Shown here: positions 20,981 through 64,000 of the stretch, piece by piece
How the letters are laid out: the number at the start of each line of letters is the position of its first letter
Position numbering within the stretch: position 1 is the first letter of the stretch
Assembly: GCA_036172245.1 (NCBI GenBank)
Contig: JAYWIR010000010.1
Span: forward strand, 3,286,001 to 3,350,000
Length of the DNA: 64,000 bases
Reading direction: 5' to 3'
Origin: Raillietiella orientalis
Taxonomy: Eukaryota
Made by a program: the position numbers and the translations under genes
The notes under the pieces: model-generated
Told to the model about the DNA's origin: nothing
Databases searched by the model: none
The model's input: only the letters and a program-made list of their open reading frames with translations

Positions 20981-23900
20981 TTTTTAACCCGGGTGAGCCG
21001 GGGCTTTTATTACTAAAAATTTTATAACAAAATTTCATAATAAAGTCTTCTTTTGATCAAGTGAAGTTGTCTTTGAATTGCTTTGTTTTTTTCAGTCGGA
21101 ACACACGATCCGACTGTCTTGAGGCACTTGTCCTTACCAACCCGCAGGCCGATAAGGTCCTCCACACTGGCGCGGGGGCGGGAAAAACAAAAACAAAACA
21201 AAAATAAAGAAAACGCCTGGAGGGTAATGTTCTTTGGGCGGGGAGAGGGGAAGGAGGGAATCACGGTACGCCGTGAGGAGGCCTCTGCATCCGGTTTCGG
21301 ATCCGAACAAGTGCCGGTAAATGGTGTCGAAGTCGTGGCCAACGGCAGGCCTTCTCCAAGGAGATGGCTGCCCAGTGAATGGCACTCCGACTGGTGCGTC
21401 CTCTCCTTGACGCGGTCCATTTGTCCAGGATTCCGTGTATACAACAGAGCACTGCTACACACCCGGAAGCTGGCAAGGCGTCCCGCATCAGGAGGCGTCT
21501 GAATAAGTTTTTCAGGTCGCCGACCGGAATGTTCAGGATCGACGAGAGTCGGTCCCACATCTCCCGGAGGGCGACACACTCCAGAATCAGGTGGGGGAAG
21601 ACCTCCCGCTCCCCGCACTCTGTGCAGTTGGCATCCACACTCCCCGATGTCCAGTGAGACAGGCGTGCTCTGCTTAAAAGTCCCCAATGGAGAAGAAGCA
21701 GCACCGTCTCCTGCCACTGCAGGGGAAGGGTGCCGTTGTCCCAAGACGCTGGGGGCCACTTCACCTCCTCCGGAATTATGTCGAGCAGCGCGCCCCAGCG
21801 TAAAAAAGTCCGTTCGGCGGAACAGGGGGTGTACTAGCGTCCGCTAGTTCCCTTGACGTCCACGCCTTCAATAGTTTTTTCCTGCCTCCGATGAGGCAGG
21901 ACACTTCCCACGATGCCTTTCTGCTGGCTGTCCCGAACTTCCCTGAGGGAGGGCAGCACGGGGGCAAGGGGAGTGAAGGACTCCCACAGAAGTTTCCGTG
22001 GGTTGCATATGATCTCCTGCAGTGACTGACCAGCGTGCCTGCCTCTACGGAGGCAGGAGAAGTCCTCATCGCTGGAGCCGTTGACTTTCGCCCATGCGGA
22101 AACGGACTCCTGGAGCCAGGTAGTCCAGTCCGCAGGGATGCAGGAGATCCACGGATTGTCTCTCAACAGGGCAACCAAATCCCGCAGCTGAAACCCACAG
22201 TGGTTTAGGCTGCGGTCGTTGGCTACTAGGATTGAGGTCAATCCTTGGCAGCCGGTTGCCCTGTGAGCAAGGAGTCTTGATGGTGCACAGCAGGGTGCGG
22301 TCCAATACTTTGCCACAAGGGCAAGTTTTCGGAATTGGAGCTGTCGCTCCATGCGCTCCAGCGTCAGGAGACCAAGTCCACCGTCCCTGCGTGGAGAGCA
22401 CATGTCTTTAAGTCGGACGCGGGGCCTCCGGTTGCCCCAGAGGGCTTTCCGTATGAGACTCCTTGTCCTTTTCCGAATTTGGGGAGGGGTGGGGCACACA
22501 AAAAGTAGGGGGCGAAGGAGGGGGGCCGCGAAAGCGTTCCACACCGTGGCCCGTTCCTGTAAGTAAAACTTGCCGTCCCGGAACGGGCCGATCGCCAACT
22601 CCACCTTTTGAAGACGGTCGGACCAGGCTTCTGCAGCGCAGAAGTCCCCCAACGGAACGCCAAGGTACTTGATGCACCTGCCCGTGGGGATCCCCAAGCG
22701 GATCCAATCCGACCGTCCGGCCCGCGACGAGTCCGTGAAGAGCAACGACGACTTCGCCCTGTTTACCTCGAGTCCGGTCTCACGGTGCAGCAGCTCGAAG
22801 AAATCCTCGAGCGCCGATGCCGGGGTGGACCCGGGAAGCAGGAGCAGAAGGTCGTCGGCATAGGCCGACACGGCAGGCGTACCGGGACACGAGCTCGGCA
22901 GGGTTGCCAAAGTCTCCCTGTATGCTCTCAGCACCAACTCAAAGTAGATGCTGAAGAGCAGGGGGCTGAGGCTGTCACCCTGCCGGATGCCGCGACGAAC
23001 CGGCACGCCGTACACGTGCCGGCCTCTGAAACAAATATTAATGATCGCGAAGCGCCAGCAGGAGCGCAGGTAGGCCAGGAAGACGGCCGGAGATCCCATG
23101 CGTTCCAGGAGCTCCAGGAGGAGATCCTGGTCGACGCAGTCGAAAGCTTTACGCAAATCGACTGCGACCGCAAGGGCTCCGGGCGCCTCATCTTATTCCC
23201 GGCTTCTCTCCCCCCAGTCACTGGAGAATCCAGGACTCTCCCGACTTAGCTGGGCCTCGCGTTGTTGCAACTGCCAAAAGGTGCTGGCGAGGAACAGGTT
23301 GGCCTCCATGGTTCGTCCTGGAACAGCGTATGTCTGTTTCGGACTGACCACGGGTTCCGCTACCCGTCCCAGCCGCTCAGCCCAAAGTTTGGCGAGCAAC
23401 TTTGCGTCCGCATTCACCACAGTGATGGGACGCCAGTTGCCAACGTTGCGCAAGTCTCCTCCCTTAGGGGGGAGACGTACTCTAGATGACCGGAACGAGT
23501 TGGGGACATGCCCACGTTCACGGATCAGCATACACAATTTGAGCACCAGAGGGACCAACTCTGCCGCGAAGTGTTGGTAGAATTCAGCTGGCAGGCCGTC
23601 TTCCCATGGTGCTTTATTTTTTTTTAATTGTTTGATGGCGGAGACAACCTCCGCCATCGTAAATTCTTCTTCAACGGTGTGACGTTGCTCCTCCCTTAAC
23701 GCGGGAGCACCCTCGGGCAGCAGACGCTGCGCAAAGGAGCGCTCTGGTGTTCTCCTCGCGTATAGGGAGGAGTAGATTTCCCGCAAAATGCGGCAAACCT
23801 GCGCTGGAGATGAGTGCTCCTGGCCTTCTTCGTCCAGTAAGCAGGCAGACCCGGATTGCCAGGCCTGCCTCTCAGCTCCAGCCTTGAACTCCGCCAGGCG

Positions 23901-24260
23901 ACGGACGTCGGGCTTGTTGGAGAAACGACGGGCCTGGAGATAGTTGCGGTCCTTTCTCACGCCTTCGCCGAAACCTGGAGGAAGTTGATGGAGGGGAAAC
24001 TGGTCGCAGAACTCTCGGACTGAGCGTTTTATTTTATCCCAGTCAGCGAGAGTCTGCAGTTCGCAACTTCGCAGGAATGCACGCAGATGTTTGCGCGCTC
24101 CTGCGAGTCGCAACCAGTCTCCCGGCAGGCGCCACGCTTCGGAGGGTGGACCTCTGTCGCGCGGATGGATGGTGAACACTAGCCGAGGGTGATCGGACAG
24201 CTCCGACGCGAGTGCCCCTCGAGTCCCCACCCGCGTGCACAGGTGGTTATCGAGGAACAC
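20981..24260 (-). mobile_element. 5'-truncated L1/Tx1-like non-LTR retrotransposon (ORF2: end of APE endonuclease, RT, C-terminal CCHC)
   Basis: Motifs seen: ELSDH, WRL, KAPWEDGLPAEFYQ, NWRPITVVNADAKLLAK, DLRKAFDCVD, GIRQGDSLSPLLF, AYADD, IKYLGVPL, GGLGL, CTECGEREVFPHLILEC. Frameshifts near 23190 and 21800-21900. AATAAA and a short A-run at the 3' end (~21010, 20981-20985); possible GTCTGG target-site duplication (20974-20979 / 24261-24266). Confidence 0.92.
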
Positions 24261-26799
24261 GTCTGGGTGGCGCTGCGCTTCAGGGTGTTTCCCATTTCAG
24301 GGCAAACACATTTGGTTTCCAGATCATACAATCATGGATGGTGGACTCATCAACAGACTTGACTTTCTGCCTGTGCAGGAGGTACTGATCAGAGTGGTCT
24401 CTCATCGCCTGTGCAGAAGATGCATAAAATTAAAGATCACACCCTCAACAGGTACGCTAGCTTCATACGACGTTTACAGGAAGGTGTGAAGTATTGGTAA
24501 AGAGAGAACTGAAGAGAGCTGCCACAAAATGTAGAGAATTGATGTTTTCTAATCGAGCTATTGCATGAACGGACACAGAGCTGATTCCAGAACTAAGTGC
24601 TCCGATGCTAACCATTGTGGACTCCATGTGACCTCTTAAGTGTTCGGAAGTGGAGCTTAAAGAGGCAAGACAAAAGAAGGAGAGCAAGAGTCACGTCCAG
24701 AATAGTGCTCACAACATCATAAAAGTTTTCTTCGATATCCATGGGATGGTGGGATCCTGAGGAGCGATGAAACACCAAGTATCCGAAGAGACAGACCAAG
24801 AACATTAAAAACAAAAATGGTGTGCTCGAGAACCCAGTGTTCTTGATAAGAGCACCTGATGGGTCTCCGCCCATACTGGAAGCATCTTCAAGATTGGCGT
24901 CTTTTTCCACGGTGAACGAAACCATGGAGATGACGGATCAGCTGAAATGATCCTGCTTGCGTTTCAAACGCTGCAAGCCCAAGCGGTGGAGGAATCCCGG
25001 AGGGCAGAAATATTCCGGCTCAGAGGCACTGATGAGAAAAAGATGTGCCTCTGATCCAAGATGAAATCCGGGCTAGCTTCCTCCGCTTGATGCTTTCCTT
25101 CGATAAAGAAACTGGTCGAGTTCCATTGTGGAGACGCTTTCCTCGAGTGACCTTTCAAATTCTCACCGTGAGAGAGATGGAGTTGGATGCATCTTTCTGC
25201 TGAGGATGGAAACAGCAAGTATTCTTGTCCGATAGCTGACTCCAGTTCCCTCCGGATGGTCTTCAGAGTTCCATCTGCCCCCTGAAATTCCAGTGTCGAC
25301 CATTGTCCCTTTCCTACAACCATTCAGGTTCTTAGCTGAATTCATTTTGTGGAGTTGCATTGGGATGGGAGCGAATGAAAATGGAAGAACTTGCATTCCT
25401 AAAGGACGGTGGAGATTTGTCCGGAGGTGGAGGTTTGTGTGAGTCTTAAGGAGTTGACCGCGACGGAGACTCTTCCAGAGCTATCAAAGTTAGACAAATC
25501 TAAATGCCTTCAAGACATCCTTAATTATGCTGCACCAAATAAATCCTCAGGAAGGGAAAAGAACTATTCTCTGCGACTTTCCACCGGTCAATCAGAAGTC
25601 TTTGGAAAGAATCCCAGAATCCCAGGATTCTTGATTGATGCCTCCGTCCTTTCCTCCCCCAACATACTGCCGTCTTCGTGGTGTATGTTCGTTCGACTTC
25701 CTGGTAATGAGGATCCCTGCCACACTTCAGCAGGCAGGTCTCAAGAAATCTGCCTCACTGCCGGAAGGCGCCAGACGCTGTAGCATCGCTGCAATTGCAT
25801 CGCAAGGACTCTTAGATTCCCGAACGCTGCTTCACATGAGCTCTGTCCCAAGTGTTCACCTACTCGGACTCACCAACCGCCTCTTCTCTTGAGATCCTTT
25901 GTCAGTGAGAGTAACGATGATCACGAGAATGCAAGGGTCTGGCTGGCATCCTAGGGAGGCGTTTGAGATCGTCCGCATGAGAAGAGCAAGGGAACCGTCG
26001 AATCCAGGATGCGAGATGCGAAGGAGTTCAGATGAAGCATTGAGACACTATCCCGAGACCGGTGGACACACTCGCCTTTTCTTCCCAGCCCTCCCTTCCT
26101 GATGTAGGACCTCGGTAATCAGTTCAGTGCCCCGAGAGCTGGGCCCAATTTTATCCTTCAGTTATTTATGGACCTTCTTTCTTCTTGCTTCACTACTTAT
26201 TGGTTCTGTGCGCCACGAGGGTTATTCCTTTCGTTTCGAGAAGAAAGATGCTGATCCTCTCATAATGGGGGAATTTCATTGTTGGAATCGTCCCCTTGCT
26301 TCAGAGCTGTCCTCTCAGCCGGAGAAGAACGACAGTGGTCAACTGACAAGATGTGAAAAAGTCACCTGCGAAATCGCAAGAAAAGAAAGCACCTATGTGG
26401 ATGACCACGCGTCCACTTCTCAAGGCAACCACTACACAAGTTCTCCCCGCAGAACTTCACCGATGGAAGGGTCTCCTAAGATTCTCCATGGAAGACCTCA
26501 ACATCCTCGCGGTGCCGTTAAGCAGCTCCGTGCTGCCCCTGAAGTAGCAAAATCTGGCAATGCTGGAACTAACTTGTAGGTCTTCCTCGCGAATGACGCT
26601 AACATCATTGCAATCCACTGACGCCAAGGATACCACGGATCAAGGAAGGAGGAACAAACCTCCAACTCTCAGGCAGGCTAGAAGCGGATTGAAAGGAGCG
26701 GACGAGAGGCTTCCTGCAGGGAGACAGAGGTACCACCGGTTGAACCCACCGCTTCTTCCCCAGCCTCCGGACGATGACGGCATCAGGGCTCGTTCTTCC

Positions 26800-30600: not shown

Positions 30601-32899
30601 GTGCTACGCCCGAATGATTAGGCCAACGCAGAAGTCTTAACCACAAAGCCTCCGACGCGGGCCTGCTAAGTCTATGCTACTTCAACATCACTACTTCAAT
30701 TTCAAGGCCATAATTCTGCAGTGGCTGCTATTCCAGTTTCTCCTCTGAAATCTTCTGGGCAAACTGGAAAAATTTCTGTTAACAGGATATTAGGAGAATG
30801 AAGCAATAAAGTGTGGCTTTTACTGCATTATTTCCGATTCCCAGTGCAGGTGCAGGTGCAGGTGAATTTTGAAGAACACGATTGTAGGTTGGTGGATGGC
30901 GTGAACGTCCGAGAACAGTCAGTATCAATTTGGTAGTGCCTTGATGCAAAGGCTCTAACAGCCTATTAGTTCCCCCCTTGACTGACAACTAGCCTGAACA
31001 GTCTGACAGCGTTTTTCAATTCTGGACCGCAGCTTCTGGAAAGCATCATCAATGACATGCATCCCCCAAGTGAGGAGAATTATGATCCCCATCCCTTGAA
31101 TTTTCTTCACGCAGGGCATCCGGAAGTATCCGGAGGTCACAACTTTGCTCGTGTGAACCAAGGGAACATAGTGCATCCAGTTTGGAAAACGCCATTTCGG
31201 TGTGGCTCTTTCTGGTTCCATCGATGACTCCGTCTCCTTGGGTATGCCTTACCTAGGTGACTCGTTGCATTGCAGTGACTGCAAACCTCGAGTTTCCCCA
31301 CAAACAAATCGTCCACCTACTCTTCGTCTAATTGTATTTTGTGAGAATTTTTCCTTCACCCTTCACAGCAACGTGCACTGCAGCTGAACTGTCAAACATT
31401 CCCTCAGAACCGAGGAGGTGGTTTGCCTTATACCACACCACATGCATGATAACAAACCGGAACAGTTCCCGGATGACTTTCTGTTTTGCCATCCAGAGCA
31501 CGATACTCATAAGAAGGACCATAAATGAGCAGCTTTCCGTTTTAGAAAAGAGGTTGTGGCCCTCGATTACTAGAGAGGAATTTAGGATTCTCTGAGACAC
31601 TTCCGTGTTTGTGCAGAAGAGCTTGACGGAGATATCATTGCTGAACACTAGGAGCCCTTCCAGCTCCCTCTCAAACACGCTGAACTTTTGAAATTGGCGG
31701 CAAGCACAGCGCAGATCCACTTTTCCTCAGTCTTCATAGACTGTGGACGAGATCGTAGCTGTAGGCATTCCCCTCCGAGTTCCTGGAAGTGAAGGGTTGC
31801 TGCCGTAGCCACGTCGCTCCAGGTTCTCGCGATCGTCGTGACTGCACCCAAGGAACTGGAATCTGTTCCGACTAGAAGAGCCCCTTCTCCTTCCCTTTTG
31901 TAGTGGTGGGTGCACATTCATGGGAGACTGGGAACTCCAGGAAGGGAACCGCATTAACCATCGCCAAAGCAAACTGTCCCTTGGGACTTCAAACGAAGAG
32001 AAACGAACTCGCGAGTCGGAGACCTTTTGGAAGCTACATCTTGCGGTCCAGTGACTTCAGAAGAAAGCCTTTCTAAGAAGCTGTAGCTACATAAAAACGC
32101 GTCTGCTTGTGGCTTGAGCCGGACGGGATGGGAGGTCAGAAAATGGGTGTTACCACTGGTTTCTAGGCTGTTAGATCACAATCGTCTTGAAAGACTTTTT
32201 TATTCCACCTTCCAGTTCAATCCACTTCCCTGCCCTCATCATGGGGCGATAGCGGTTGCAAACGGCTCCCTTGCATGATGACAGCACTCTCCTTCCATTC
32301 CGGAGATTAAGGTTTGCCCGCACGTGACAGAAGATCGCCAAAGAGGAGACAATCGATAAGTTCGAGGAGGGGATGCTTTTCTCGAAAAGATCTTGTGAAG
32401 GAAGAGGAGGGAAGAAGAGGTGAGGTATCACAATCAGTGCCCGTAATATGAGCCTGTAGCCCTATTGTAGCCTTTTGAGTCCAAAAGCGCTAATTGGTGC
32501 ATCCCTTCAACTCTGTAGCACGCACATTCTATAAGGATGTCCTCGGAGGAGGGGCAGTAAGAAGCCTCGTTACGGAAAGGGCTACAGGTTATCGGCAAGA
32601 TGATGGTGTGGTGGCAGAGAAAAGGAAGGATGGTCAGAAGGTTCAGGATCTCGGAATTATTTTCATGAGTTTTAAGAAAACTCCTTCATCTCTGTGGATC
32701 CTTGCATGGAGTCTTTGGGCGTTGAGCTTCTGGGCGTGAGTTCCATTACAGCTTCAGCGTTTTGAAGGATGGGGTTAGCAGCTCACACAGTCTGGCAAGT
32801 TGGCTCCCTCTTTGAAAGGGATCTCATCTCCTCCATTCCCACCGAGATAGGCGGGGTTGCATACCCATAGGTCTGTGCAATTCATAAACAGAGAAATAT

Positions 32900-34200: not shown

Positions 34201-34829
34201 CAGCTGAACCAGTCTTTCATCTGTCCTCATTTTCAATGTTTTTTATTATTTCAAAATTGACAGCCTTGCCAGCACGTTGTAAACTGGATCCTACGCGTGC
34301 GCCCAGCTCGAGCAAGACTATGGAATGGACAACATGAGTCCAGTTACAGTGGCAAATACACTTGGGAATGCATGTCATCAAGGAAGCTGCAAAAGGAATA
34401 TTGAGAAAGGGAAAGAAGGACAATTACAAATTACAAGGATACCACTGAGCACACCGGAACAGTTGAAGGGCTGACCACGGCATTCGTAAGCAATCCTAAG
34501 TATGACAGACGAGATCTTAGTTATGAGGATAAGAGGCCTGATTAGATGTCGGAACTGATAAGATGGAACTGATTTTGGCGGATTCAGCCTGCAGTCGGGC
34601 AAAGGCTGTACACTGTTGAAGTTGGTTCAGTGCAAAGTTGGCGTCCAGTTGTCCACAACAGAGAAAAAAGTTGGTCATCTTGTAGTTAGCTTTCGAACAG
34701 TATCAGCAGCAAGTAAAGCATAGATGAGTTATTGTATTCTGCTTTGGTAGAATCTGAATCGGATGGAAGAAACAAACATTCTTATTCCGAATGCTACTAT
34801 TTCGGTCTTTTACATCGACAAATTTTACA

Positions 34830-35549
34830 TCAAAATGTTTTCTTCTTTAGGAAATGGAATGATGTATCAATTACAAGGATTGTAGAATTAGATACCTCTT
34901 TAAGATGATCTAAATGTCTACGATAAGTGTTGGAGTAAAACCTCAATCCACGTACACCAAAATATCGCTCGAAACAACCAGACGTTTCCACATGACCAGC
35001 TATTACATCTTCCACTCTACTATAAGGCATTCCAGTTAAGGCTCCAAAGGTCTCTCCCTGCTTTGGACTTTGATACAGCAACATATTTCGATACGACACC
35101 TTCATTCCGAATTCTTCACCCATGTTTCCAATTGTTAAGCCCAAAGACAAAGGCTCTATCTTCACAGACAGACCTTTAACCCTCATATACCTATAATATC
35201 TTGAAAATTGCTCCAGATTACAGATACGCAACAAATCCTTAACAGTAGGCGCGTCTTCCAAATAAGTATACATCCAGGCACAATTAACAGCATCACCATC
35301 GGCTGTCCTCAAAGACGAGTAATGCGTTGCGCCCTGCGTTTGGTCCCTTACAACTACACGCGTTGTTCTTAATAAACGGTAACGCGAACCACGCATACGC
35401 CTCCATTTACGACGACGAACATTCCAACGACGGCGACGTTTAAACGTACTATATCCACTACGCCGACGTGACACACGACGACGCTTTACATAACCAGAAG
35501 ATACTGCACGCTTTCGTTTTCTAGAACGAACAGCGCGAGGCAACGCCAT
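34830..35549 (-). CDS. cap: Putative CRESS-virus capsid protein (239 aa, open)
   Basis: Very Arg/Lys-rich N-terminus (MALPRAVRSRKRKR...RRRRWNVRRRKWRRMRGSRYR) and FSRYYRYMRVKGLSVKIEP resembling the circovirus-type capsid YYRI.KVKV motif. Lies divergent from Rep across the origin. The last ~20 aa may be read-through into host DNA. Confidence 0.8.
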   Translation of the reverse strand: MALPRAVRSRKRKRAVSSGYVKRRRVSRRRSGYSTFKRRRRWNVRRRKWRRMRGSRYRLLRTTRVVVRDQTQGATHYSSLRTADGDAVNCAWMYTYLEDAPTVKDLLRICNLEQFSRYYRYMRVKGLSVKIEPLSLGLTIGNMGEEFGMKVSYRNMLLYQSPKQGETFGALTGMPYSRVEDVIAGHVETSGCFERYFGVRGLRFYSNTYRRHLDHLKEVSNSTILVIDTSFHFLKKKTF

Positions 35550-35783
35550 TCCGCTGATTGACAGCGTACTGGCGACCTAACGTAACCCCCCTCTCTTTTT
35601 AAGTCTGGCTGGTGGGCACGCCCATCCGACTTTATTAGCCTTCCACGAGGTCGGATCACGCCCACGCGCTTCCCACGTGCACAGCAACAGCTTGTTCCGC
35701 ATTCCATAGCCTTCCACGATTGCGGCACCTTCTATATCTATTTTAACATACGGAATTTCCCAAGGTTTTGCGTTGTCAGCTAC

Positions 35784-35818
35784 ATGCAATCTGGGTAATA
35801 CTATTGACCAGATTGCAT
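35784..35818 (-). promoter_or_regulatory. Rolling-circle replication origin stem-loop with nonanucleotide TAGTATTAC
   Basis: Perfect 11-bp arms ATGCAATCTGG (35784-35794) and CCAGATTGCAT (35808-35818). The 13-nt loop reads TCAATAGTATTAC on the minus strand; nonamer at 35795-35803. Confidence 0.93.
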
Positions 35819-35823
35819 TCCTG

Positions 35824-35843
35824 CGCAGTTACGCAGTATAAAT
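35824..35843 (+). promoter_or_regulatory. Candidate iteron pair (CGCAGT x2) and Rep TATA box
   Basis: CGCAGT repeated directly beside the stem-loop, overlapping TATAAAT at 35837-35843, about 50 nt upstream of the Rep ATG (35894). Confidence 0.5.
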
Positions 35844-35893
35844 ACAACTACACGGACAACCAAACCCAAGTCTTACTTACCGAGAATTTCGAG

Positions 35894-36840
35894 ATGCCGT
35901 ACGCACTATTTTTTAATTGGTGTTTCACCTTGTGCAATTTCACAGAGGAAGACCTGAAGGAGATCGAGACATGGTGCCGAGCAAACTGCTTCTTCGCCTG
36001 CATCGGGAAAGAAACAGCCAAGACAGGGACGCCACAACTTCAAGGCTACTTTCAGTTAAAAGAACCTAGAACTATGCCAGGCTTGAAAGGGAAAACATTT
36101 CGAAAATGTCAACTAGAAAAAGCAAGAGGCAGTCCACGGAGCAACTTGAGGTACTGCACCAAGGAAGACAAAGAAGCTTGGACATACGGCAAAATCAACG
36201 AGGCCAACGAACCACAGGATTACCAAGATCTCGTAAGCATAATAACTACCTAACAAACCTAAAACAATTCTCTTACAGATACTACAACTCATAGAAGATG
36301 GAGCTGATGAACACTTCATCCTCAAGAACCACACAAAATTTTATTCTAAAAACATCAACTTCGTCGAAGAGTGCTTCCGATTGACAGGAAGCAGAGCGCA
36401 CCCTAATCCATTAGCAAACCTACAACTTCGATCCTGGCAATTGGACATCATCAAGCATATTCGCCACACGCCAGACAACAGGAAAATACATTGGTTCTAT
36501 GATCCCGTCGGAGGAATTGGCTAAACCACAATGGCCAAATTCCTGTACCTTAAAAAGGGTGCTATCTACATGCACTCCTGCAAAAAGGCCGACGCTGCCC
36601 ATATCTAAAATGGAGAACGAATCATAGTTGTGGATCTTACAAGAGATAATATGGAACATGTGCAATATGGATTTATTGAGAGCCTTAAAAATGGAATTAT
36701 TTTCGATTCCAAATATCAAGGCTCTATAAAATATTTTCAACCACCTCACATTATTGTCTTTAGTAATTGTGAGCCTAATTACGACAAGATGAGTTCTGAT
36801 AGGTGGGTTGTTCGTGATGTTTCTGTACAATGGTGTGAGA
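35894..36840 (+). pseudogene. rep: CRESS Rep (HUH endonuclease + SF3 helicase), spliced, two premature stops
   Basis: Exon 1 (35894-36232) has motif I FTLCN, motif II PQLQGY (H>Q) and motif III YCTKE. Exon 2 (from 36279) reads LRSWQ...RKIHWFYDPVGGIG*TT (Walker A, TAA 36522-36524), HI*NGERIIVVDL (TAA 36606-36608, Walker B), YGFIESLKNG..FDSKY, PHIIVFSN (motif C), KMSSDRW. The frame stays open to 36941, likely into host sequence. Confidence 0.92.
36233..36278 (+). other. Predicted 46-nt phase-0 intron in viral Rep
   Basis: GTAAGC donor, CTAAC branch-like motif, TTCTCTTACAG acceptor. Removing it joins ...YQDL|ILQLIEDG... in frame with the helicase and eliminates the TAA at 36251. Confidence 0.8.
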
Positions 36841-39199: not shown

Positions 39200-39930
39200 A
39201 AGGGGTGCTGAAGAACTATTCACCCCCTAAAGGGAAGCTTACGAACCTCTTCAAACCCGTGGGTGAGTACAGCCCTTCAAGTTGGGAGGTCACCCAAGAG
39301 GGACCACCTCATGAATACAGGAAGGCTCCGCAAAAAGTAGTTCATTCCTCTTACGCTTGCGAGGGAACCTCGAAGGGAATCTCCTTCCTTATTCTCTCCG
39401 GAAGGAACTCAGGGAGGAAGCCACTCCTCATTTTCCTCCGAGGGGAACCCGGAGAGAATCCGCTCCTGGAATTTCTTCTCAGGATTCTCTGAAACCCGCA
39501 AGGGAACCGCTCCCTGTTTACTCCTCCGAAGAGTACCCCGAAGGGATGATTCCGACTTTTCTCTGAAGGGCGCTCCCGAAGGGAGCAGCGCGTTTCTCAA
39601 CACCCTGGAGAGGCAGCCCCTCCAGGGGGGGTATCAACCATCTCCATGATACGCGATGGAATATTCCCTCGAGGGGAAGGGGGGCTGCTCCAAAAGGGGA
39701 AACCTGAAGGAAGCTTCTGCTTGGTTCCTGAAAGGAACACTGCCAATCAACGGGGGCATCTGGTTCCTACCAGTGCCGCACCCGGAGCATGTAAGTCAAC
39801 CAGCGTCATCCTATGGGGAGATGGGGACTCGTCCATTTCTCTGGGTCCAGCCTCCATGTGGAGATTCAAACCTGCAATGCTTGGTACCACGCACGGAAAC
39901 AGTGGTCACACGACCACCAACGTGGTCCAT
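39200..39930 (-). repeat. Interspersed repeat copy 3 (hairpin-rich tail plus coding remnant)
   Basis: Shares CCTTATTCTCTCCGGAAG, GTTTACTCCTCCGAA, CTCTGAAGGGCGCT.CCGAAGGGAGC and CTTGGTACCACGC with copy 1. Minus strand reads FRAWYQALQV*ISTWRLD, versus LRAWYQELRVSIPMWRID in copy 1. Confidence 0.75.
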
Positions 39931-45480: not shown

Positions 45481-46371
45481 GGCTGCAGGATTGGAGACCC
45501 TGTCGTCCATTGGTTCCGGAATTCCTGAGCATGAAGAGGGTACGCAGATTCGTTTCATACACTTGTTTGTTTGAGAGGAAGAAGCTGGAAGCAACCATCA
45601 GCCGCCATGCCAGCTCTACAGCCCGCACGGTTCATCATGAGAGTTTGAATTCTTGACCAGCCGAATGCCAGTGTCTTTGAAGTGGTTTCCCTTGTGCCCA
45701 GTCGGAGATTCGTTCTTCCTGACGAAACAAAGATACCTTGAGGGAACTATAGTCTAAATCTAAGTAGGAAGTTCCCTACTGTAGTCTGATTGCTTTCAGC
45801 TCTCACTGAAGCCGTCATATTGAGCTTTCCTTTATTTTTACCTTTTGCCTCTTTCAGAGACGAAGACTTTTCTTGGTAAAGGGTGCAGATCTACACTGAT
45901 GATGCAGCCTGTGCGACAGACCAGAACGAATCAGCAGTAGCTGATTTTTCATAGTTAAGAAACCATCTGCACGTCGAGGAGGGATTCGTTTTGAGGATTT
46001 ATTCGATCTGCATCCACTTATCGCCTAGTGATGGAGAGATCACGAGATTGAAAACCCGAAAAATTCGGAGAATAATTCGGAAATTTTCAGGAGGAGATGT
46101 TCCTCCTGAAAATTTCAGGAGGAACATCAGAGAGCGAGAGAGCTGTTTTAGATAACTCGCTGCTGCGCCAGAAGTTTATTCAGCCAACCTGGGCAGCTTA
46201 CATTCTCATTCAGGGTTACGCGCGACGCCTACAAAACATCGCAAGATCATTTCAGGAATGGTCTTGGGGACAGTCAAGAAAAACGAGAGAGAGATCGAAT
46301 GTCCTTGAATTTGAATCCAAGACGAGACCTCGGCCACACTTCTCTTCCTTCCACACAACCGCTGATCTTAC

Positions 46372-46585
46372 CTTCTGATATGAATATGCTGATGGTGTCA
46401 GGTTTCGTGTGAGGAGCAGTGCAGGTGTAGTTGCCAGAGTCCTGGATGCCAGCTCTGTGGATCTTCAGATGGCTTTGAGTTTTCGGATACTGAGTTGTCT
46501 CGATTCGGACACGCTCCTTTTCCGACCCGTAGTGGATGATGTTTCCGTTGTGGTACCAGAACACGTGTTGCAATGGATGCAAGGA
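46372..46585 (-). CDS. Dpr/zig-8-like protein, internal exon (rest of Ig2)
   Basis: Encodes SLHPLQHVFWYHNGNIIHYGSEKERVRIETTQYPKTQSHLKIHRAGIQDSGNYTCTAPHTKPDTISIFISE(G), with Ig motifs VFWYHN and DSGNYTC. Acceptor ttttcctttcag|, donor |gtaaga; 214 nt, phase 0-1. Confidence 0.92.
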
Positions 46586-49500
46586 CTGAAAGGAAAACCC
46601 CTGGCATTCTCTTCCGGAATGAGGAGGATGGGCATCCGTCAGAAAATAGGGATCATGAAAACTTTGGCAAACATTTCTGAGGGAAAGCCTCTAAGGTGTT
46701 CATTTCTGTTTCAAACTTTGCGGCAACTTCCAGGCGAGAGAGAGACCGAGAGAATCGCACGGCACTCCTGGATGCGAAGTCTTCGCAGGTTTGTGAATTG
46801 GCAGAGCAAGAGATGGGAAAAGCAAGAGAAAATGAAGTCACAGAGGTTTCGACGAGATGGAACTTTCGCAGGAAGCAATCCCGACCGTCTCGCGCCGAAA
46901 TAACGGGAAGGATGCGATCCAACGTAAATTTGGAAATCTTTTCGTAATCGGTCGAGCAAAATGAAACTGTGGGAGCAGGAAAAGGCGTCACACAATATGG
47001 GAACAGCGTTGGAATTCTACGCAAGGAGCGTGGATGGAGGCTTCCTTGACAAAGCAATAAGAGCCAAAGCCTTAAAACTTGTGCCGTTCTTGAAAAAAGT
47101 CTCCCGATCTCCGGATTGGGGGCCGAGAATGACTTCTAATGGGTGAAGGACCAGAATAAAACTTTGTATTGCAATGCGTTCCATTATAGTAATCCAGATA
47201 TTAGTGTTCAAACAACTGTAAGCAAAAGGTCCATTATCTTTATTCTAATGTCGAAGTTATCTGACACATATGAACTCTTTTTTTTTCAAGATTCGACTCT
47301 CCGTATTCAAGCATGCAGAGTCTGAAGAGGTAGCTGGGCACCAATTCATAGATTACCCGTGACCTTCTCTGAGATCCTTCGAAGACGTCCATGGCACTTT
47401 TCCCATCAGCGAAAATTTCCCAGATAATTCGATCATTCCATTCCCCATATGACAGGGTTCGTGGTACAAGCATTGAATTTGAGCTCATGTTAAGGTCATT
47501 TGAACCTCAGGCAGTGGATTTCGAGGACAGACGAAAGTTGCAGCGTCACATTTGAAAAGATTCCTTATCTCTCCTTTTCCCAGAAGTGCGGGAATGAGGA
47601 AATATCTACAACACTGCAGATTGTACTCCGCTTTTGCGTTCGCAATGGCTTCTTCCGCATTCACACATGAACACTGTGTGATCCGTGCTCAATCTCTGCC
47701 GCAATGGCAGTTGCAGATTTTCACACTCGAGATTTCGTCTTCGTATGTCTGCTGTCGAACTCTGACACCTCACAAGGATGAGGTCCGGCATAGAACAAGG
47801 TGTCGAGATCGTGCGGCTGCTGGCAGACACTTTGGACGTAATCGAGTTTTTCCACGAACATTGGCTTTCAAAAAAAGTAGTTCGTCTCGTTCGTGCACCT
47901 GAAGCGAACTTGATGACCGGCACGGAATGGCTAAGGAACATGGAAATTTCACGTTTCTCAAGCTTTGCCTTTGTCCTCACTTCTGAGAGAACTCCTTTTG
48001 GAAACCAATCCTGCTTCAGGATCTTTTCCTGAACAATTGGAAAACTGTTGAGTTTCCCAAGGAAAAAAAGTCGGTCGAAGGAGAAGACCTGAGAAATTTC
48101 ATTACTCTGGACTCCCCCGATACCGCCTTGCCAGTGGACAAAGAGTGCACGGTCGGCACTTGAGCTACCCTGAGACCTGTGGACTTCCGTATAGGAAGCA
48201 AAATGTCCGAGGTTTACAAAATTACTGAACCAAAGATTTTCCTTCCGGAACCTGGTAGTTCTGGAGTTTCTTTTCCTTTTTTTTCTGTGTGTGTTTTAAA
48301 ATAGTATTTTCTCAGATGGCGTGTCGAAAAAACGGGAAAATGATCTTTAACCAAACAGGAGCTCCAATGGGAAAGCATTTCGATGTTATGAAAGAGGATA
48401 AAAGAGCAGTTTTTCAGAACCATGCACTCTTTGTTTCCTTCATTTCCAACTCTCGGCATCCTCTGAGAATTTTATCAAAATGAATGGGAAAGGCTTGTGG
48501 AAACAGCAAAGTACCCGACTAGTCCAGGTTTTATGAGGCATAGAAAGCACGAATTCTTTCGTATTTGTTCCGTGAGAAGACATACCGCAGCGTGCAGCAG
48601 TTTCCTGCAGAAACCAATATGGCGGACCGATATGAGATGGAGAGTTCTGTGAATTCATTCCGAAGTTTTCGGTAAAGATTATTTTTCATAAGTAAAGCCG
48701 GATAGCGAACCGGACTTCTTAAATGACCGCCATTTTGCTTCCGCGCCCTGCGGGGTATCAAGAAGTGTTTGAGTTCAGGAATTTCTAGATTAATTTTGGG
48801 TCTAAAACTTCACAATGACAGTTCCTGGATGAGGCCTCGTCGGATAGAGCTATTCGTTTGAGAGAATTTTTTTTGAGATTGTCTCTCTCTTTATCTCTGT
48901 CTATCTCTCTAGGAAACATGATTATTGTTTTAATTGAGTTGAAGTTCTCTCCGGGCACTCCACGATGAGAAGAGAAGGACTCCCCCACAAATACGAGACT
49001 TTGTATTGCTTTCCGAATTCAGCTTAGGTAGCGGATAAAAACTCCAGAGGTAGCTGTAAGCTTCCTCGAGGATACTGCAAGTGTACTTTCGGTATTTCTG
49101 GAGACAGAGGAAGCCACTTTTCACGTAAAAGAAATGAAAGAAAAAGAATGAAAAGATGGATGTTTCTAATAAGATAGACCTTTGCCTCCAGCCATCCCTC
49201 TTGTCCGGAAGCAAAAATCTCTCGAAGGATGCGAACGACCCATAAGCCAAACGTTCTCTGTTTCAAACTCGAGATGTCGATTCCAGAGATCAATATCGAT
49301 AGTTGTTTCGCTTCTTGGCTTCCGTAACAGAATTGATAGATAGTAGATAGTAGTTTCGACTGGTCTTTAATTCCTGGTTAGTGTTTCTATGGAAACACAG
49401 ACATACCAAGCTCGACGACGGTGGTGCATCACGACTTCTCACTACATATATGTATGAATAAAAAAGGTATTTCTGAAGACCACAGGATTCTTCTGGTTTT

Positions 49501-59960: not shown

Positions 59961-61987
59961 CACGATGTCGGCAGTCGATAGATGGAGAGTTCTTCATCTA
60001 AAGCGTGATGGTGCCTCCTTATTTCCTATAAATGATCGTTTAATTGCTTCTTAATAATGGCTTTCCATGGCTCCTCCACATTTGTTCTGTTCTCAGAAAA
60101 ACCTTTCTTTCCAGCTCAGGGATTTTTCCGAGTGCTAGGAAGTTCAAAAAAAAAAAAAGACACTTGAACGAGTAGCTCTCGCGGAAAATTCCTGTTTCCA
60201 TTTTCCACGGTAATCGTACGTATCCTGTGGGTGTTATTTTTTATTTTTTTTCTTTCCTTTCGTTTTGTCTCGTTAGAGGAGATGCAGTCACACCCACACA
60301 AAAAAAAAAAAAAAACATTAAGAGAAAACCAAAGTATCTGAATGCATCTGAGTACCTTTTTTTGGATTTTCATTTTCTACCGTACAAGAAAGCACGAAAG
60401 AAGCGCTGGTGCCCACAACAGGAGCACCAACGCTTCTTTCTTTCTTTTTCCCTTTCTTTCGTGCACCGGTCTTCCTTTTGGAAAGAGCTTTTCTTTCAGT
60501 TTGCTCTGCTGGACATTGTCTCTCAGAGGTGCAGAATCTCTGCATACGAAAGTCGGAGTAGGAAACACCGCTTATTTTTTGCATGTACAAGCATGGGTGG
60601 GAATCTTGGAATGGCTTGAACTCCGTTTAAACGACAAGCTGCACGCATGCCTTCTCACTTTTCATCTGGAACCGGGTTCCATGAGGGTAGCAGCAGATTT
60701 TCTCTCTTACCCACGGTGCTGAGATAGCTCTGACCCCTTGAATTCCTCTTAATTTACATGTGCTGATGCGATTTCCTCAAATATCCTGCCGTGACTCCTG
60801 AAGTGGCTCGCATTTTCGTCTGCTCATGACTCCGGCCGTGCATCAAAGACACCATTCTTCCAACTTTCCCTTTATGAATTTTTGACGAACGACCTACTGT
60901 GGTCTCTTCTCACGTCTAATGCAACCTTCTACTTTCAGTCTCGAACTTTCATTTTCTTCTCAGCATCCTCACATCCTTCTTCAAACACATTAGTCAGTTC
61001 TTATGTTTCCTCGGCACTTCCCTGTGTTGTCAATCCTGGACTTTAGGGAAGCACTCTTCAGATGAAGCCAGCTGCTTCCCTAACAGGGATACCAAAGTAT
61101 CGTGCTTCAACGCGAAGCACACAAACTTTTTCTATGAAGAAGAAGATCTCAAACACGCACGCTCACACACACACGGAAACACTCGCGATTTCTTGTGACA
61201 GTGATGTTGCTACGCTTGGTAGGAAGTGCATCCTTATTTCAACCCCTGACCTGTTCCGGTGCCATCTCTCTAGGCAAAGCAATTCTGTCTGTTGCTGGAG
61301 TGGCTTCCGATTCCTCATGCTGCATGTTCTTGTCTTTTTGGATGTCAAATTTTAATTCAATCTTCCGAATTTCCGTAGTCTCCTACCTGAAATATCAAAA
61401 GATCCTACATGCCTTCAGGCCCATATTTCTCCTTCCGTCTCCTTTACGAAATAATAAACTGCTGTATGCTCATTCCGAAAGCGGTTTCACTTGGCTCCAT
61501 ATAGTAAATCTCCATACGCACCGAGGAGATAATTAGCCTGTCACAGTAATAACTTCATGTGCTCTTCAGAAATCGTGAATCAAGAGTGCGTGTTCTCTCC
61601 TGATAGCACCAAAACCGAGCTGTGGAGGGCATGCTGCAAATCACGACCTTTCCGGCTAACGCTCCCACTTAAGAAGGAAACCTGATGGAAGAAAATCCAT
61701 CTTCCCTGAACATGAAGGCGCATCTCTTTCTACGAAACAAGCAGCTTGAAATCTGAAATTCGGACTCGGTTCGTGAGTAATTTGTTCTACGGATTTCCTC
61801 GTGCAGGGAGAGAAACGAAAAGAGAAGAAAGAGGTGGTTCTTTTCGACGAAACGACCGCACTCCTCGATCGTTCCGCATCCGATTGGGCTTCTAGGAGAA
61901 ACCATCCAGCAGCACCTTTTTCATCAAATTCTCTCCGAAAACCCAAGCACCTTGGAAACCGACATGGTTAGGTGGAAGTCTACTTAC

Positions 61988-62146
61988 TTGACACTCGTAC
62001 ATTCCTTGGTCAGATTTCCTGACGTTCTTGATCTGCAGAACCCAGTCGCCTGACTCTTCGCACAGAATTTGGAAACGTCCATCCTTAGTGTACGCAAGAT
62101 TTCCTGACGTCAGAATGTGGAAATCCGATCTTCGTATCCATGATAT
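61988..62146 (-). CDS. Dpr/zig-8-like Ig cell-surface protein, internal exon (most of Ig domain 1)
   Basis: Encodes ISWIRRSDFHILTSGNLAYTKDGRFQILCEESGDWVLQIKNVRKSDQGMYECQ, matching the Dpr Ig1 pattern SWIR..D.HILT.G...YT.D.RF...W.LQI..V...D.G.YECQ. Flanked by cag| acceptor and |gtaagta donor; 159 nt, phase 0-0. Confidence 0.92.
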
Positions 62147-64000
62147 CTGAGCCAATGAATCAGTAATCGTGCTGGAACTCAGTGACAAGTCCTTCTGGAC
62201 CGCTCTTTGACAAAAAGCGAAACGAAACGCGCTCGACCTCGCAGTGGTGCGCCATCACACCTTATGGATGATGGCACTGTACCGAAACTTGCGCAAGGCA
62301 CTTGATGTTTCGGGAACATGCTTTGTGTGGTTCAAGAAATCAAATGTTACTAAAGAACTCTGCACACACCGCGTCTCTGCAAGCAAGGTACGCTCTACAT
62401 CTCTGCATACGCGCACATTCACTACAGATGTATATACATGAGCAAACTGCACTGCTGCATGCATGGTATATTACATGCATGGTATATTACACTATTGATT
62501 ATCCGCATAGATATGTGAGCCTTAGTTGTAGTCATGATGATAGTAATATTACACAGGTAGCTTGAAGGCGTGCGAGTGAGTACATGTAGACATGTAAGCA
62601 AGTAGGCATTTAAGTTTTGCATACATTGTATATATTTCTACAAGAAGACCTATGCAGTTAACAAAAGAAAATGCGGATGGATTTATGATCTGTGGAATTT
62701 CGAAAAGTGAAGAAATGCAGCCTTTCGAGCAAGGGGAGTGAAAATCTACGGCTGCTGGATCTACCGCTGTCATTTCAAAGGCAGTTTCAGATATTGTTTA
62801 TTGGAAAAGATCAGATCTACTGTCTTGCATCAAAGCAGCCGCTTTACAATCTCCAAAATCAAAGGAGGGATTCATCTTAGAAAGCTCTCTGTTTTCAAGA
62901 GAGCTCTCTGAAGGGGTATCTAGAATGGTCTCTAGCAGCTAACTCTGGAAATGTTCCCACCAGCATGAGGAAAGTCATCCTGGACTAATCATCAGAGATC
63001 AACACAACCAGTCAGGAGAGCTGATACATAGACAGGTATGTGTAGCGTCTGACGATGTCCACGATGATGATGCAAATGATGGAAAATCCTATCCAACACA
63101 AGAATAGTGACCAGCGGAATCATCTTCATCTGCATCGTTTCCTTTTGGTTGTGGCGGCTACCATTATGGTCGAAGAAGGAAGTAAGGCGTCGTCACAAAG
63201 GAAGGATGCAGCAGCTGCTTGCTAACTTTACGCCATATCGAAACTTTTGCATTTGTGAAATCCTGTATTATGCCGTAAATTTCCTCTTTAGGAGATACGC
63301 TAGAAAATTTGGACTGTGGTGATCGCAAGCTGTAACAACATGCGAAGCCCGAATGATGATTATCCTTCTATGCATAATAAGAGTCTCAGCTGGACTGAGC
63401 TAAGTGTTTTTGTGAGTAGGAACAAAGCTGCTGCCTTCCATTCTTCCTTGATGAGCATAAGGGAACAAAAGTAAGAAGAGAAAGGTGCAAATCCCAACGC
63501 CGTCTACAGCATCTCCGATCTTGGGAGAATGCAGACTTCCCTCCTTACCTCTCAGAATACAGATAGGGAAACCCACTAGTAAACTCTGGACGAGATAAGC
63601 ATTCATTCTCGGTAAAAAATAGTAAGTGGCACCACTGCAGAGAGAATCATAATTCGTGATGCGTTATTCGAATGACTGTTTGCAACCCAATGAACGCTCC
63701 ACATTCTGTGGCAAAACAATAAAGAAATCAAGCATCAACAACCAAAAATCATTCATCAATTTCGCAGAAACCGAGAGTCATCGTAGGACTCTTCACGAGA
63801 GAGGAGGATTGCAGCCTGCTGTTGGCACTTCGATCTCACGGGATTTAAATGTTGTACTTCCGTCTTTTTCCGAGGACTTCTTTAGCATCGCCATCAGATT
63901 ATGAATGGATTACCTACTTCATTGATGATGCTTTCGTTTCCGTATTGCATCATCAGTTTTCTCAGTTGGTTACTATCATAACTGTTATTACTTGCAGCGA

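What the first reader, a model, noticed from the sequence alone, without database searches (positions are those of the whole stretch)
34830..36840. Near-complete endogenous CRESS-DNA virus with cap, rep and an intact origin in an animal chromosome
Seen: divergent cap and rep, a perfect 11-bp stem-loop with TAGTATTAC, and all three RCR motifs plus Walker A/B and motif C, embedded among host repeats ~9.5 kb downstream of Dpr-like exons. Established: CRESS endogenous elements are commonly rep-only fragments, and many CRESS lineages known from metagenomes have no confirmed host. Inference: this is a nearly whole-genome fossil tying an unclassified CRESS lineage to this animal host.
Basis: partly seen in the sequence, partly recalled or inferred. 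Interest (0 to 1): 0.9.

Follow-up and report, generated by a model that had tools for sequence, protein, structure and literature searches.

The report
Fossil circular DNA virus in arthropod-like genome
A roughly 2-kb, almost whole copy of a small circular DNA virus, with its coat gene, replication origin and a now-broken replication gene, sits in what looks like arthropod DNA, which links a poorly known virus lineage to an animal host.

Summary
Window 34830-36824 carries a complete ambisense CRESS-DNA virus layout.

- **Cap:** an intact 239-aa ORF on the minus strand, with 28 of its first 60 residues Arg or Lys.
- **Origin:** a 344-nt intergenic region with a perfect 11-bp stem and a 13-nt loop holding TAGTATTAC on the cap-sense strand.
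- **Rep:** Pfam Viral_Rep E 2e-13. The helicase part is 35-44% identical to 158 metagenomic CRESS loci.

Rep is dead. It has two in-frame stops, one at the Walker A lysine. The invariant motif II histidine is replaced, and no stop codon closes the gene. A 46-nt GT..AG interruption is probably a viral intron.

Cap has no detectable sequence relative anywhere I searched. Rep sits on a long, unplaced branch, so the lineage is unclassified. Its layout is cyclovirus-like, but the helicase shows no detectable similarity to solved circovirus Rep.

The flanks hold Ig-domain exons and a reverse transcriptase, so the context is animal, probably arthropod. No reads spanning the junctions could be obtained.

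One low-depth DNA run holds the left flank exactly. It also holds at least two other Rep-like sequences that differ from the window mostly at synonymous sites.

Verdict: a real, fairly young endogenous viral element, and a new member of a known kind.

The parts
34830..35549 (-). Putative capsid (Cap) ORF, 239 aa plus stop. It is intact and has an Arg-rich N-terminus.
   Evidence: ORF list. 28 of the first 60 residues are R/K, 23 of them R. Pfam Circo_capsid only E 0.04, 14.7 bits against a cut-off of 36.2. The nearest ESM Atlas clusters are Cressdnaviricota capsid clusters, score 0.96, which is a lead only. No sequence relative was found.
35550..35893 (.). Large intergenic region between the 5' ends of cap and rep.
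   Evidence: Read from the sequence. It contains the stem-loop, a 13-nt exact direct repeat and a TATA-like box.
35784..35818 (-). Origin-type stem-loop: perfect 11-bp stem and a 13-nt loop. The nonanucleotide TAGTATTAC is at 35795-35803 on the cap-sense strand and abuts the 3' arm.
   Evidence: (I5). The same geometry and strand relative to rep occur in 49 of 49 relatives with a detectable stem-loop.
35625..35719 (+). Two direct repeats (35625-35648 and 35696-35719) sharing an exact 13-nt 3' end, spaced 71 nt apart. They could be iterons or promoter elements. Their function was not tested.
   Evidence: the repeat finder family D1.
35837..35844 (+). TATA-like TATAAATA, 50 nt upstream of the rep ATG.
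   Evidence: Read from the sequence. Its role as a promoter is inferred.
35894..36232 (+). Rep part 1 (113 aa), the HUH-type endonuclease domain. Motif I is CFTLCNF (35921-35941). Motif II is TPQLQGY (36029-36049), with the invariant His replaced. Motif III is YCTKE (36152-36166).
   Evidence: Pfam Viral_Rep 2e-13. PDB Rep endonuclease domains score 6e-13 to 2e-8. Conserved-column count. Coordinates.
36233..36278 (+). 46-nt interruption that shifts the frame by +1. It has a GTAAGC donor, an internal CTAAC, a pyrimidine run and a CAG acceptor. It is a probable spliceosomal intron; the alternative is a post-integration insertion.
   Evidence: The continuous 329-aa Rep of L085 aligns to 35894-36220 in one frame and to 36276-36824 in the next, so the frame switch is bracketed exactly. 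None of 92 relatives with both domains adjacent has a frame change.
36279..36824 (+). Rep part 2: a long linker and an SF3-type helicase. Walker A is at 36501-36527, with a stop codon at the Lys position (36522-36524). A second in-frame stop is at 36606-36608. Walker B IIVVDL is at 36621-36638 and motif C IIVFSN at 36750-36767. Homology ends at 36824. The frame then runs on without a stop to 36941.
   Evidence: Pfam RNA_helicase scores only E 0.076.
46277..46690 (-). Host Ig-domain exon (context, not part of the element).
   Evidence: Pfam Ig_3 1.1e-6, I-set 5.6e-6.
61895..62254 (-). Host Ig V-set exon (context).
   Evidence: Pfam V-set 2.1e-8. The nearest Atlas clusters are mostly arthropod, score 0.92, a lead only.
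21025..24296 (-). Decayed retrotransposon reverse transcriptase, split over several frames (context).
   Evidence: RVT_1 9.6e-18 and 1.6e-4. zf-RVT 7.3e-5.

Best explanation
This is an endogenous viral element: one near-unit-length copy (about 2.0 kb) of an unclassified ambisense CRESS-DNA virus (phylum Cressdnaviricota) integrated into an animal genome, probably an arthropod's.

Shown:
- The gene order is cap (minus strand), a 344-nt intergenic region with the stem-loop origin, then rep (plus strand).
- Rep can no longer work. It has two premature stops, one at the ATP-binding lysine. The metal-binding histidine of motif II is replaced, and the stop codon is missing.

Inferred:
[quoted passage not shown] The nick site in the origin loop was not the break point, because the origin is internal and whole. 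Integration was therefore probably host-mediated, non-homologous joining of the double-stranded replicative form (or of a multimer later trimmed), not a Rep-catalysed event at the origin.
- The locus is now inert. The origin has no working Rep in cis. The open Cap frame is most simply explained by the insertion being young. A rough estimate is 0.05 substitutions per site since Rep was released from selection.
- The 46-nt interruption in rep is most likely a viral intron, which implies nuclear expression in a eukaryotic host.
For: Viral identity:
- Pfam Viral_Rep 2e-13.
- PDB Rep endonuclease domains 6e-13 to 2e-8.
- The helicase part matches 80 of 80 viral-contig loci and all 158 loci at 35-44% identity.
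- Stem-loop z -4.0, and the nonamer occurs once against 0.03 expected.
- The layout is shared with relatives: 49 of 49 nonamers lie on the strand opposite rep, and 32 of 32 Arg/Lys-rich ORFs are antisense to rep.

Decay:
- The window keeps 38 of 47 columns that are at least 80% conserved. The 74 relatives keep a minimum of 37 and a median of 45.
- Three columns invariant in 74 of 74 relatives are changed.
- There are two in-frame stops.
- Rep homology ends at 36824 with no stop until 36941.

Host context:
- The window is 64 kb with no N.
- It holds Ig exons and RT ORFs.
- The nearest Atlas clusters for the Ig exon are arthropod-like.

Same organism:
- Run X1 holds a 266-bp contig identical to the left flank, 34514-34779.
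- It also holds three short contigs about 82-84% identical to rep 36578-36745, representing at least two different sequences.
- All 9 differences listed for them fall on third codon positions. The 8 in sense codons are synonymous by my reading.
Against: No read or contig spans either junction, and the virus itself was not seen at full identity in the only run offered. That run covers only about 6% of the stretch at depth about 2, so it says nothing either way. No whole genome is held for this window, so copy number, an empty site and orthologues could not be checked.

Cap has no homologue, so calling it a capsid rests on position, size, the Arg-rich N-terminus, a sub-threshold Pfam hit and a language-model lead. 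The AlphaFold model was unusable at pLDDT 33.8.

Some of the 'decay' at conserved columns could be lineage-specific divergence of a long-branch virus. The stop at the Walker A lysine and the lost motif II histidine are hard to explain that way.
Confidence: 0.8

Rival explanations
1. Assembly artefact or contaminant. A free viral genome from the animal, its food or a parasite was wrongly joined into a host contig and is not in the germline.
For: No junction-spanning read was obtained. G+C of the element is 0.43 against 0.46-0.48 in the flanks. CRESS genomes are common contaminants of animal samples (Dennis 2018, PMC6069186, passages read).
Against: A replicating virus should not carry a stop at the Walker A lysine, a second stop, a replaced motif II histidine and no rep stop codon. 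The element lies 34.8 kb and 27 kb from the window ends, with no N.
Confidence: 0.07
2. Endogenous element whose cap gene has been co-opted by the host, kept open by selection for example as an antiviral or structural gene, while rep decays.
For: Cap is open over 239 codons while rep has two stops. Its upstream intergenic region is complete.
Against: Given two stops in rep, only 1.7 stops are expected in cap under equal neutral decay, so P(0) is about 0.18. The open frame is therefore not significant. There are no orthologues or paralogues with which to measure selection.
Confidence: 0.1
3. The 46-nt interruption in rep is a post-integration insertion or frameshift scar, not a viral intron.
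For: Among relatives with both Rep domains adjacent, 92 of 92 have one continuous frame, so no relative shares an intron here. An alternative single frameshift between 36246 and 36250 would also join the two frames.
Against: The boundaries are GT and AG, with a GTAAGC donor, an internal CTAAC and a pyrimidine run before CAG. Removing exactly these 46 nt leaves a product colinear with the uninterrupted Rep of L085/L097, whose alignment to part 2 starts 1-3 residues from the acceptor. Introns in rep are reported for several cycloviruses and for arthropod CRESS genomes (PMC5656780; PMC6186406).
Confidence: 0.3

Closest known systems
Genus Cyclovirus (family Circoviridae)
   Same: The genome is about 2 kb and ambisense with two major ORFs. 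The putative origin, with a (T/n)A(G/t)TATTAC nonamer at the top of a stem-loop, lies between the 5' ends of the genes and on the cp-coding strand. The 3' intergenic region is short or absent, and rep is interrupted in some members (ICTV profile PMC5656780, passages read; window features). The endonuclease domain is most like the solved Rep entries 7kii, 2hw0, 5xor and 7lar. I recall these as circovirus Reps; the tool gives only the molecule names.
   Different: The helicase part finds no solved Rep at E up to 1. A profile of 46 relatives hits the full-length entry 7lar on the endonuclease domain only. Pfam Circo_capsid is far below its cut-off. No named cyclovirus sequence was available, so the defining Rep phylogeny was not run.
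Unclassified metagenomic CRESS-DNA viruses (IMG/VR and metagenome contigs L001-L158)
   Same: The Rep helicase is 35-44% identical and the endonuclease up to 44%. The nonamer strand, its distance to rep and the antisense Arg-rich ORF are the same.
   Different: The window Rep has a 79-residue linker against 24-49 in 74 relatives. It has a 46-nt interruption that none of 92 relatives share, and it sits on an unplaced long branch. Its linker plus helicase resembles L085/L097, which are 3.6-kb same-strand genomes with a different endonuclease. That suggests a chimeric Rep. Cap is unrelated to any of 7 cap clusters from these loci; the best hhalign probability is 7%.
Endogenous circovirus/CRESS elements of invertebrates (Dennis et al. 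2018, PMC6069186; Rosario et al. 2018, PMC6186406)
   Same: These are CRESS Rep-derived DNA inside arthropod and other invertebrate assemblies, used to infer hosts (passages read).
   Different: Dennis et al. state that all their newly found elements were rep-derived, with no cap. This locus keeps cap, the whole intergenic region with the origin, and nearly all of rep. Rosario et al. describe a helminth scaffold with both Rep and capsid sequences, so the combination has a precedent.
Whole CRESS genomes integrated in Entamoeba and Giardia (Kinsella et al. 2020, PMC7493932)
   Same: A complete or near-complete virus genome with both Rep and Cap lies inside host contigs and is used to assign hosts to metagenomic families (passages read).
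   Different: Those hosts are protists with known exogenous counterparts at 73-84% nucleotide identity. Here the host is an animal and no exogenous counterpart closer than about 44% protein identity was found.

Membership tests
Cressdnaviricota (CRESS-DNA virus genome) | Rep with an N-terminal HUH-type rolling-circle endonuclease domain (motifs I-III) | tested here: met
   Pfam Viral_Rep 2e-13, above its cut-off. PDB Rep endonuclease domains score down to 6e-13. Motifs I and III are present. Motif II is recognisable but its invariant His is replaced.
Cressdnaviricota (CRESS-DNA virus genome) | C-terminal SF3 helicase domain (Walker A, Walker B, motif C) | tested here: met
   The domain is homologous to the Rep helicase part of 158 of 158 fetched CRESS loci and of P0001/P0002. 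Pfam RNA_helicase is below threshold for the window (E 0.076) and matches only 15 of 46 relatives. The Walker A Lys position is a stop.
Cressdnaviricota (CRESS-DNA virus genome) | Stem-loop origin with a conserved nonanucleotide in the loop | tested here: met
Cressdnaviricota (CRESS-DNA virus genome) | Capsid protein gene (single jelly-roll) | tested here: inconclusive
   The position, size and Arg-rich N-terminus fit, and the Atlas lead scores 0.96. Against that, Pfam is sub-threshold, no homologue was found and the fold was not predictable.
Circoviridae, genus Cyclovirus | Origin on the same strand as cp; ambisense genome of 1.7-2.1 kb | tested here: met
   The nonamer is on the minus (cap) strand and the element is about 2.0 kb. 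Criterion taken from PMC5656780.
Circoviridae, genus Cyclovirus | Rep groups with Circoviridae Reps in a phylogeny | not testable with these tools
   No named reference Reps could be fetched. Indirectly, the helicase shows no detectable similarity to the solved full-length Rep 7lar, which speaks against membership.
Circoviridae, genus Cyclovirus | Circovirus-type capsid (Pfam Circo_capsid) | tested here: not met
   14.7 bits against a cut-off of 36.2.
Endogenous viral element (germline integration) | Viral DNA contiguous with host DNA on both sides | tested here: met
   Met in the assembly only. There are 34.8 kb and 27 kb of non-viral sequence with Ig exons and RT, and no N.
Endogenous viral element (germline integration) | Independent reads spanning the junctions at host depth | tested here: inconclusive
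   The one run offered (share 0.05) gave a 266-bp exact contig of the left flank that stops 50 nt short of cap. Nothing crosses a junction.
Endogenous viral element (germline integration) | Loss-of-function changes incompatible with a replicating virus | tested here: met
   Two stops, a replaced motif II His and a missing rep stop codon.
Endogenous viral element (germline integration) | Orthologous filled or empty site in other individuals or species | not testable with these tools
   No genome is held for the window.

The most novel reading that the evidence does not exclude
The locus may be one of several recent, independent germline captures from a still-circulating, family-level-new CRESS virus lineage of this arthropod.

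That lineage would have a chimeric, spliced Rep: a circovirus-like endonuclease joined to a long linker and helicase shared with 3.6-kb same-strand CRESS genomes. It would also have a capsid with no detectable relative.

The other Rep-like sequences in the same organism's DNA differ from this copy almost only at synonymous sites. They would then be either that live virus or further captures from it. The open cap frame might even be used by the host.
Probability: 0.25. Interest if true: 0.6.

Novelty: new member of a known kind. Interest (0 to 1): 0.45.

Why it matters
Most CRESS-DNA viruses are known only from metagenomes and have no confirmed host. Published invertebrate elements are overwhelmingly rep fragments (PMC6069186, passages read).

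A copy that keeps cap, the whole origin region and nearly all of rep gives three things:
- a host anchor for a Rep clade otherwise seen only in environmental contigs;
- the sequence of a capsid that similarity searches cannot find, linked physically to its Rep;
- a probable viral intron, which points to nuclear expression in an animal.

The related copies seen in a second DNA data set suggest repeated contact between this lineage and the host. That makes a search for the living virus worthwhile.

The result is useful for paleovirology and host assignment. It is not surprising in kind.

Tried and rejected
- **Cap homologues.**
  - The word-seeded search scored 220 candidates and none reached E 0.001.
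  - The exhaustive HMMER search of 1.84 billion representatives gave 2 hits. Both are huge repetitive coiled-coil proteins matching 39 residues at about 25 bits per repeat, so I rejected them as repeat-inflated.
  - tblastn and phmmer against the ORFs of the 80, then 158, related loci gave nothing below E 0.08.
  - hhalign against 7 cap clusters from those loci gave a best probability of 7%.
- **Cap structure.** Single-sequence AlphaFold2 gave pLDDT 33.8 and pTM 0.16, which is unusable, so no fold search was run.
- **Close relatives in viral contigs.** Single-protein scans with Rep part 2, P0005 and P0002 found none. Only alignment-based scans worked.
- **Rep linker against solved structures.** 0 hits at E up to 10.
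- **Own genome.** None is held.
- **Expression.** No RNA holder was listed. Only one run was listed, with a word share of 0.05. Parts of the stretch without cover in that run are uninformative.
- **RNA families and tandem repeats.** Rfam found 0 families at gathering score in the window. No tandem repeats occur in 30-42 kb.
- **Target-site or terminal repeats.** No terminal redundancy or target-site duplication of 12 nt or more was seen between the two ends of the element.
- **Bacterial promoter/terminator scan.** At chance level and irrelevant here.
- **Earlier notes of this scan.** Nothing by place, sequence or words.
- **Helitron or other Rep-bearing transposon.** Rejected because of the antisense Arg-rich ORF, the nonamer stem-loop and the unit length shared with viral relatives.
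Full report
**1. What is at the coordinates**

The minus strand carries an uninterrupted 239-codon ORF at 34830-35549. Of its first 60 residues, 28 are Arg or Lys, 23 of them Arg.

A 344-nt intergenic region follows. In it, 35784-35794 and 35808-35818 form a perfect 11-bp stem around a 13-nt loop. Read on the minus strand, the loop ends in TAGTATTAC (35795-35803). As single-stranded DNA the hairpin folds at -14.9 kcal/mol, z -4.0, and 0 of 200 shuffles fold as well. The nonamer occurs once in the 64-kb window, against 0.03 expected.

From the ATG at 35894 the plus strand reads a Rep-like protein in two frames:
- The first 113 codons (35894-36232) are Pfam Viral_Rep at E 2e-13, 50.9 bits against a cut-off of 26.
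- They match solved Rep endonuclease domains at 6e-13 to 2e-8.
- After a 46-nt interruption (36233-36278) the next frame continues with the linker and an SF3-type helicase up to 36824.

The element occurs once in the window.

**2. State of the genes**

Cap is open. Rep is not:
- It has in-frame stops at 36522-36524 and at 36606-36608. The first is at the Walker A lysine position, which is Lys in 74 of 74 relatives.
- The motif II histidine is replaced, as is a glycine after Walker A. Both are invariant in 74 of 74 relatives.
- Overall the window keeps 38 of the 47 columns that are at least 80% conserved. The relatives keep a minimum of 37 and a median of 45.
- Homology to relatives ends at 36824. 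Their Reps stop a few codons later, whereas the window frame runs on to 36941.

The 3' end of rep and the short intergenic region were therefore clipped at integration or lost afterwards.

**3. The 46-nt interruption**

It begins with GTAAGC, holds a CTAAC, and ends in a pyrimidine run and CAG. Removing it joins the two frames.

The uninterrupted 329-aa Rep of metagenomic locus L085 aligns to 35894-36220 in one frame (25% identity). It aligns to 36276-36824 in the next frame (38%, E 1e-41 in the pairwise search). The frame change must therefore lie exactly where the GT..AG interval is, and the spliced product would be colinear with L085.

Against a conserved viral intron, 92 of 92 relatives with both domains adjacent read in a single frame. 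The ICTV profile and Rosario et al. report introns in rep of several cycloviruses and arthropod CRESS genomes (PMC5656780, passages read; PMC6186406, passages read). I put the intron reading at about 0.65-0.7 and a post-integration insertion or frameshift at about 0.3.

**4. Relatives and classification**

The word-seeded searches found only three relatives of Rep:
- P0001, 36% identity;
- P0002, 40%;
- P0005, 44% to the endonuclease part.

Alignment-based scans gave more. In viral contigs, 377 of 452 candidate stretches were confirmed as relatives and the best 80 were kept. In metagenome contigs, 238 of 362 were confirmed and 78 loci were kept. The helicase part matches all 158 loci at about 35-44% identity, and the endonuclease part matches 120 of them.

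I built a tree of 75 Rep rows with IQ-TREE (quick search, SH-aLRT support only). Six of the 78 loci with a Rep hit were left out because the extracted ORF was outside 220-400 aa. The window row was read through with X at each break. The window sits on the longest terminal branch (1.81), with no supported sister and a best identity of 39%.

Its linker between motif III and the helicase is 79 residues, against 24-49 in 74 relatives. Only L085 and L097 share that linker, and the one whose endonuclease I compared, L085, is only 25% identical there. The window Rep therefore looks chimeric.

A profile of 46 relatives hits the solved full-length Rep entry 7lar on the endonuclease domain only. The window's helicase part finds no solved Rep. 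I recall the matched PDB entries as circovirus and nanovirus Reps; the tool gives only the molecule names.

**5. Layout compared with relatives**

- My script found a stem-loop with an NANTATTAC nonamer in 49 of the 80 viral-contig loci.
- In 49 of those 49 the nonamer lies on the strand opposite rep. Its median distance from the start of the Rep ORF is 51 nt, against about 90 nt in the window.
- In 32 of 32 loci that have an Arg/Lys-rich ORF of 150 aa or more, that ORF is antisense to rep.

The window therefore has the architecture of its Rep relatives. This is also the cyclovirus-type arrangement defined by ICTV, with the origin on the cp strand. Membership of Circoviridae is not shown. The Circo_capsid score is far below its cut-off, the helicase evidence points away, and no named reference Reps were available for the defining phylogeny.

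**6. Cap**

No sequence relative was found by any route, and single-sequence AlphaFold failed.

The capsid call rests on position, orientation, size and the Arg-rich N-terminus. It is also supported by a sub-threshold Pfam hit (E 0.04). In addition, the ESM Atlas feature search puts Cressdnaviricota capsid clusters nearest (0.96, 204 of 256 features shared), which is a lead and not a test.

Cap's intact frame is not evidence of selection. Scaling from the two stops in rep, 1.7 stops are expected in cap, so P(0) is about 0.18. The implied divergence since release from constraint is about 0.05 per site, a very rough figure.

**7. Host context and integration**

The window has no N. It contains:
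- reverse-transcriptase ORFs at 21.0-24.3 kb;
- two Ig-domain exons of a minus-strand gene, at 61.9-62.25 kb and 46.3-46.7 kb.

The nearest Atlas clusters for the first Ig exon are mostly arthropod (a lead). I scanned 217 other ORFs of the window with Pfam in four calls, and apart from these they gave nothing. The immediate flanks are not repeated within the window.

No whole genome is held. The single sequencing run offered (X1, word share 0.05) gave an exact 266-bp contig at 34514-34779 and nothing across a junction. Integration therefore rests on the assembly and on changes that a replicating virus could not carry.

**8. Related copies in the same organism**

X1 also holds three contigs that are about 82-84% identical to 36578-36745 and belong to at least two sequences. 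All 9 differences that the tool lists lie on third codon positions. The 8 in sense codons are synonymous by my reading. The loose ends show a few conservative replacements.

Such a pattern arises while the gene is under selection. These sequences are therefore either a living relative or independent captures, not duplicates of this locus. That strengthens the host link.

**9. Mechanism (inferred)**

The origin loop is internal and whole, and the ends of the insert lie at the 3' ends of the two genes. The circle was therefore not opened at the Rep nick site. Host-mediated, non-homologous joining of the double-stranded replicative form, or of a multimer later trimmed, is the simplest account. 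The locus is now inert.

**10. Novelty**

CRESS-derived elements in invertebrate genomes are well documented and are mostly rep-only (PMC6069186). Elements with both Rep and capsid, or whole genomes, are reported from a helminth (PMC6186406) and from Entamoeba and Giardia (PMC7493932).

For these papers I read only search listings and the passages returned by term searches. Their supplements were not opened, and they may list further cap-bearing elements. I made three literature searches and do not claim that no similar arthropod locus is in print.

This is a new member of a known kind. It is notable for its completeness, its orphan capsid and its probably spliced, chimeric Rep.

Noticed in passing
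window 21025-24296 (-): A decayed retrotransposon. Reverse-transcriptase ORFs are split over several frames (RVT_1 9.6e-18 and 1.6e-4), with a zf-RVT domain at 21264-21833.
   Followed up: partly
window 61895-62254 (-) and 46277-46690 (-): Two Ig-domain exons of one minus-strand gene, about 15 kb apart. The element lies 9.4 kb beyond the second exon, either in a downstream intron or past the 3' end of that gene. The nearest Atlas clusters are mostly arthropod.
   Followed up: partly
run X1 on window 36578-36745: Three short DNA contigs (151-170 nt, depth 2.3-3.4) are about 82-84% identical to the rep helicase part and represent at least two different sequences. Differences are almost all synonymous. 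The contig covering the window's second stop does not share it. Depth is similar to the exact host-flank contig (2), a weak hint that these are further integrated copies.
   Followed up: partly
L085 1-3625 and L097: Metagenomic CRESS genomes of about 3.6 kb. L085 has terminal redundancy, so it is probably circular, and a 404-aa ORF on the same strand as rep. The Reps of L085 and L097 share the window's long linker and helicase (38% over 191 aa). L085's endonuclease domain is only 25% identical to the window's. This is consistent with domain shuffling among CRESS Reps.
   Followed up: partly
window 35625-35648 and 35696-35719: A direct repeat with an exact 13-nt core, spaced 71 nt apart in the intergenic region and 65 nt from the stem-loop. 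It could be a Rep-binding iteron or a cap promoter element.
   Followed up: no
window 39275-39484, 13941-14180, 30088-30131: A short dispersed repeat family, 77-89% identical, is the only repeat near the element within the window.
   Followed up: no
window 30000-30750: A local G+C peak of 0.56-0.60 against a window mean of 0.47. No Pfam hit was found in its ORFs.
   Followed up: no
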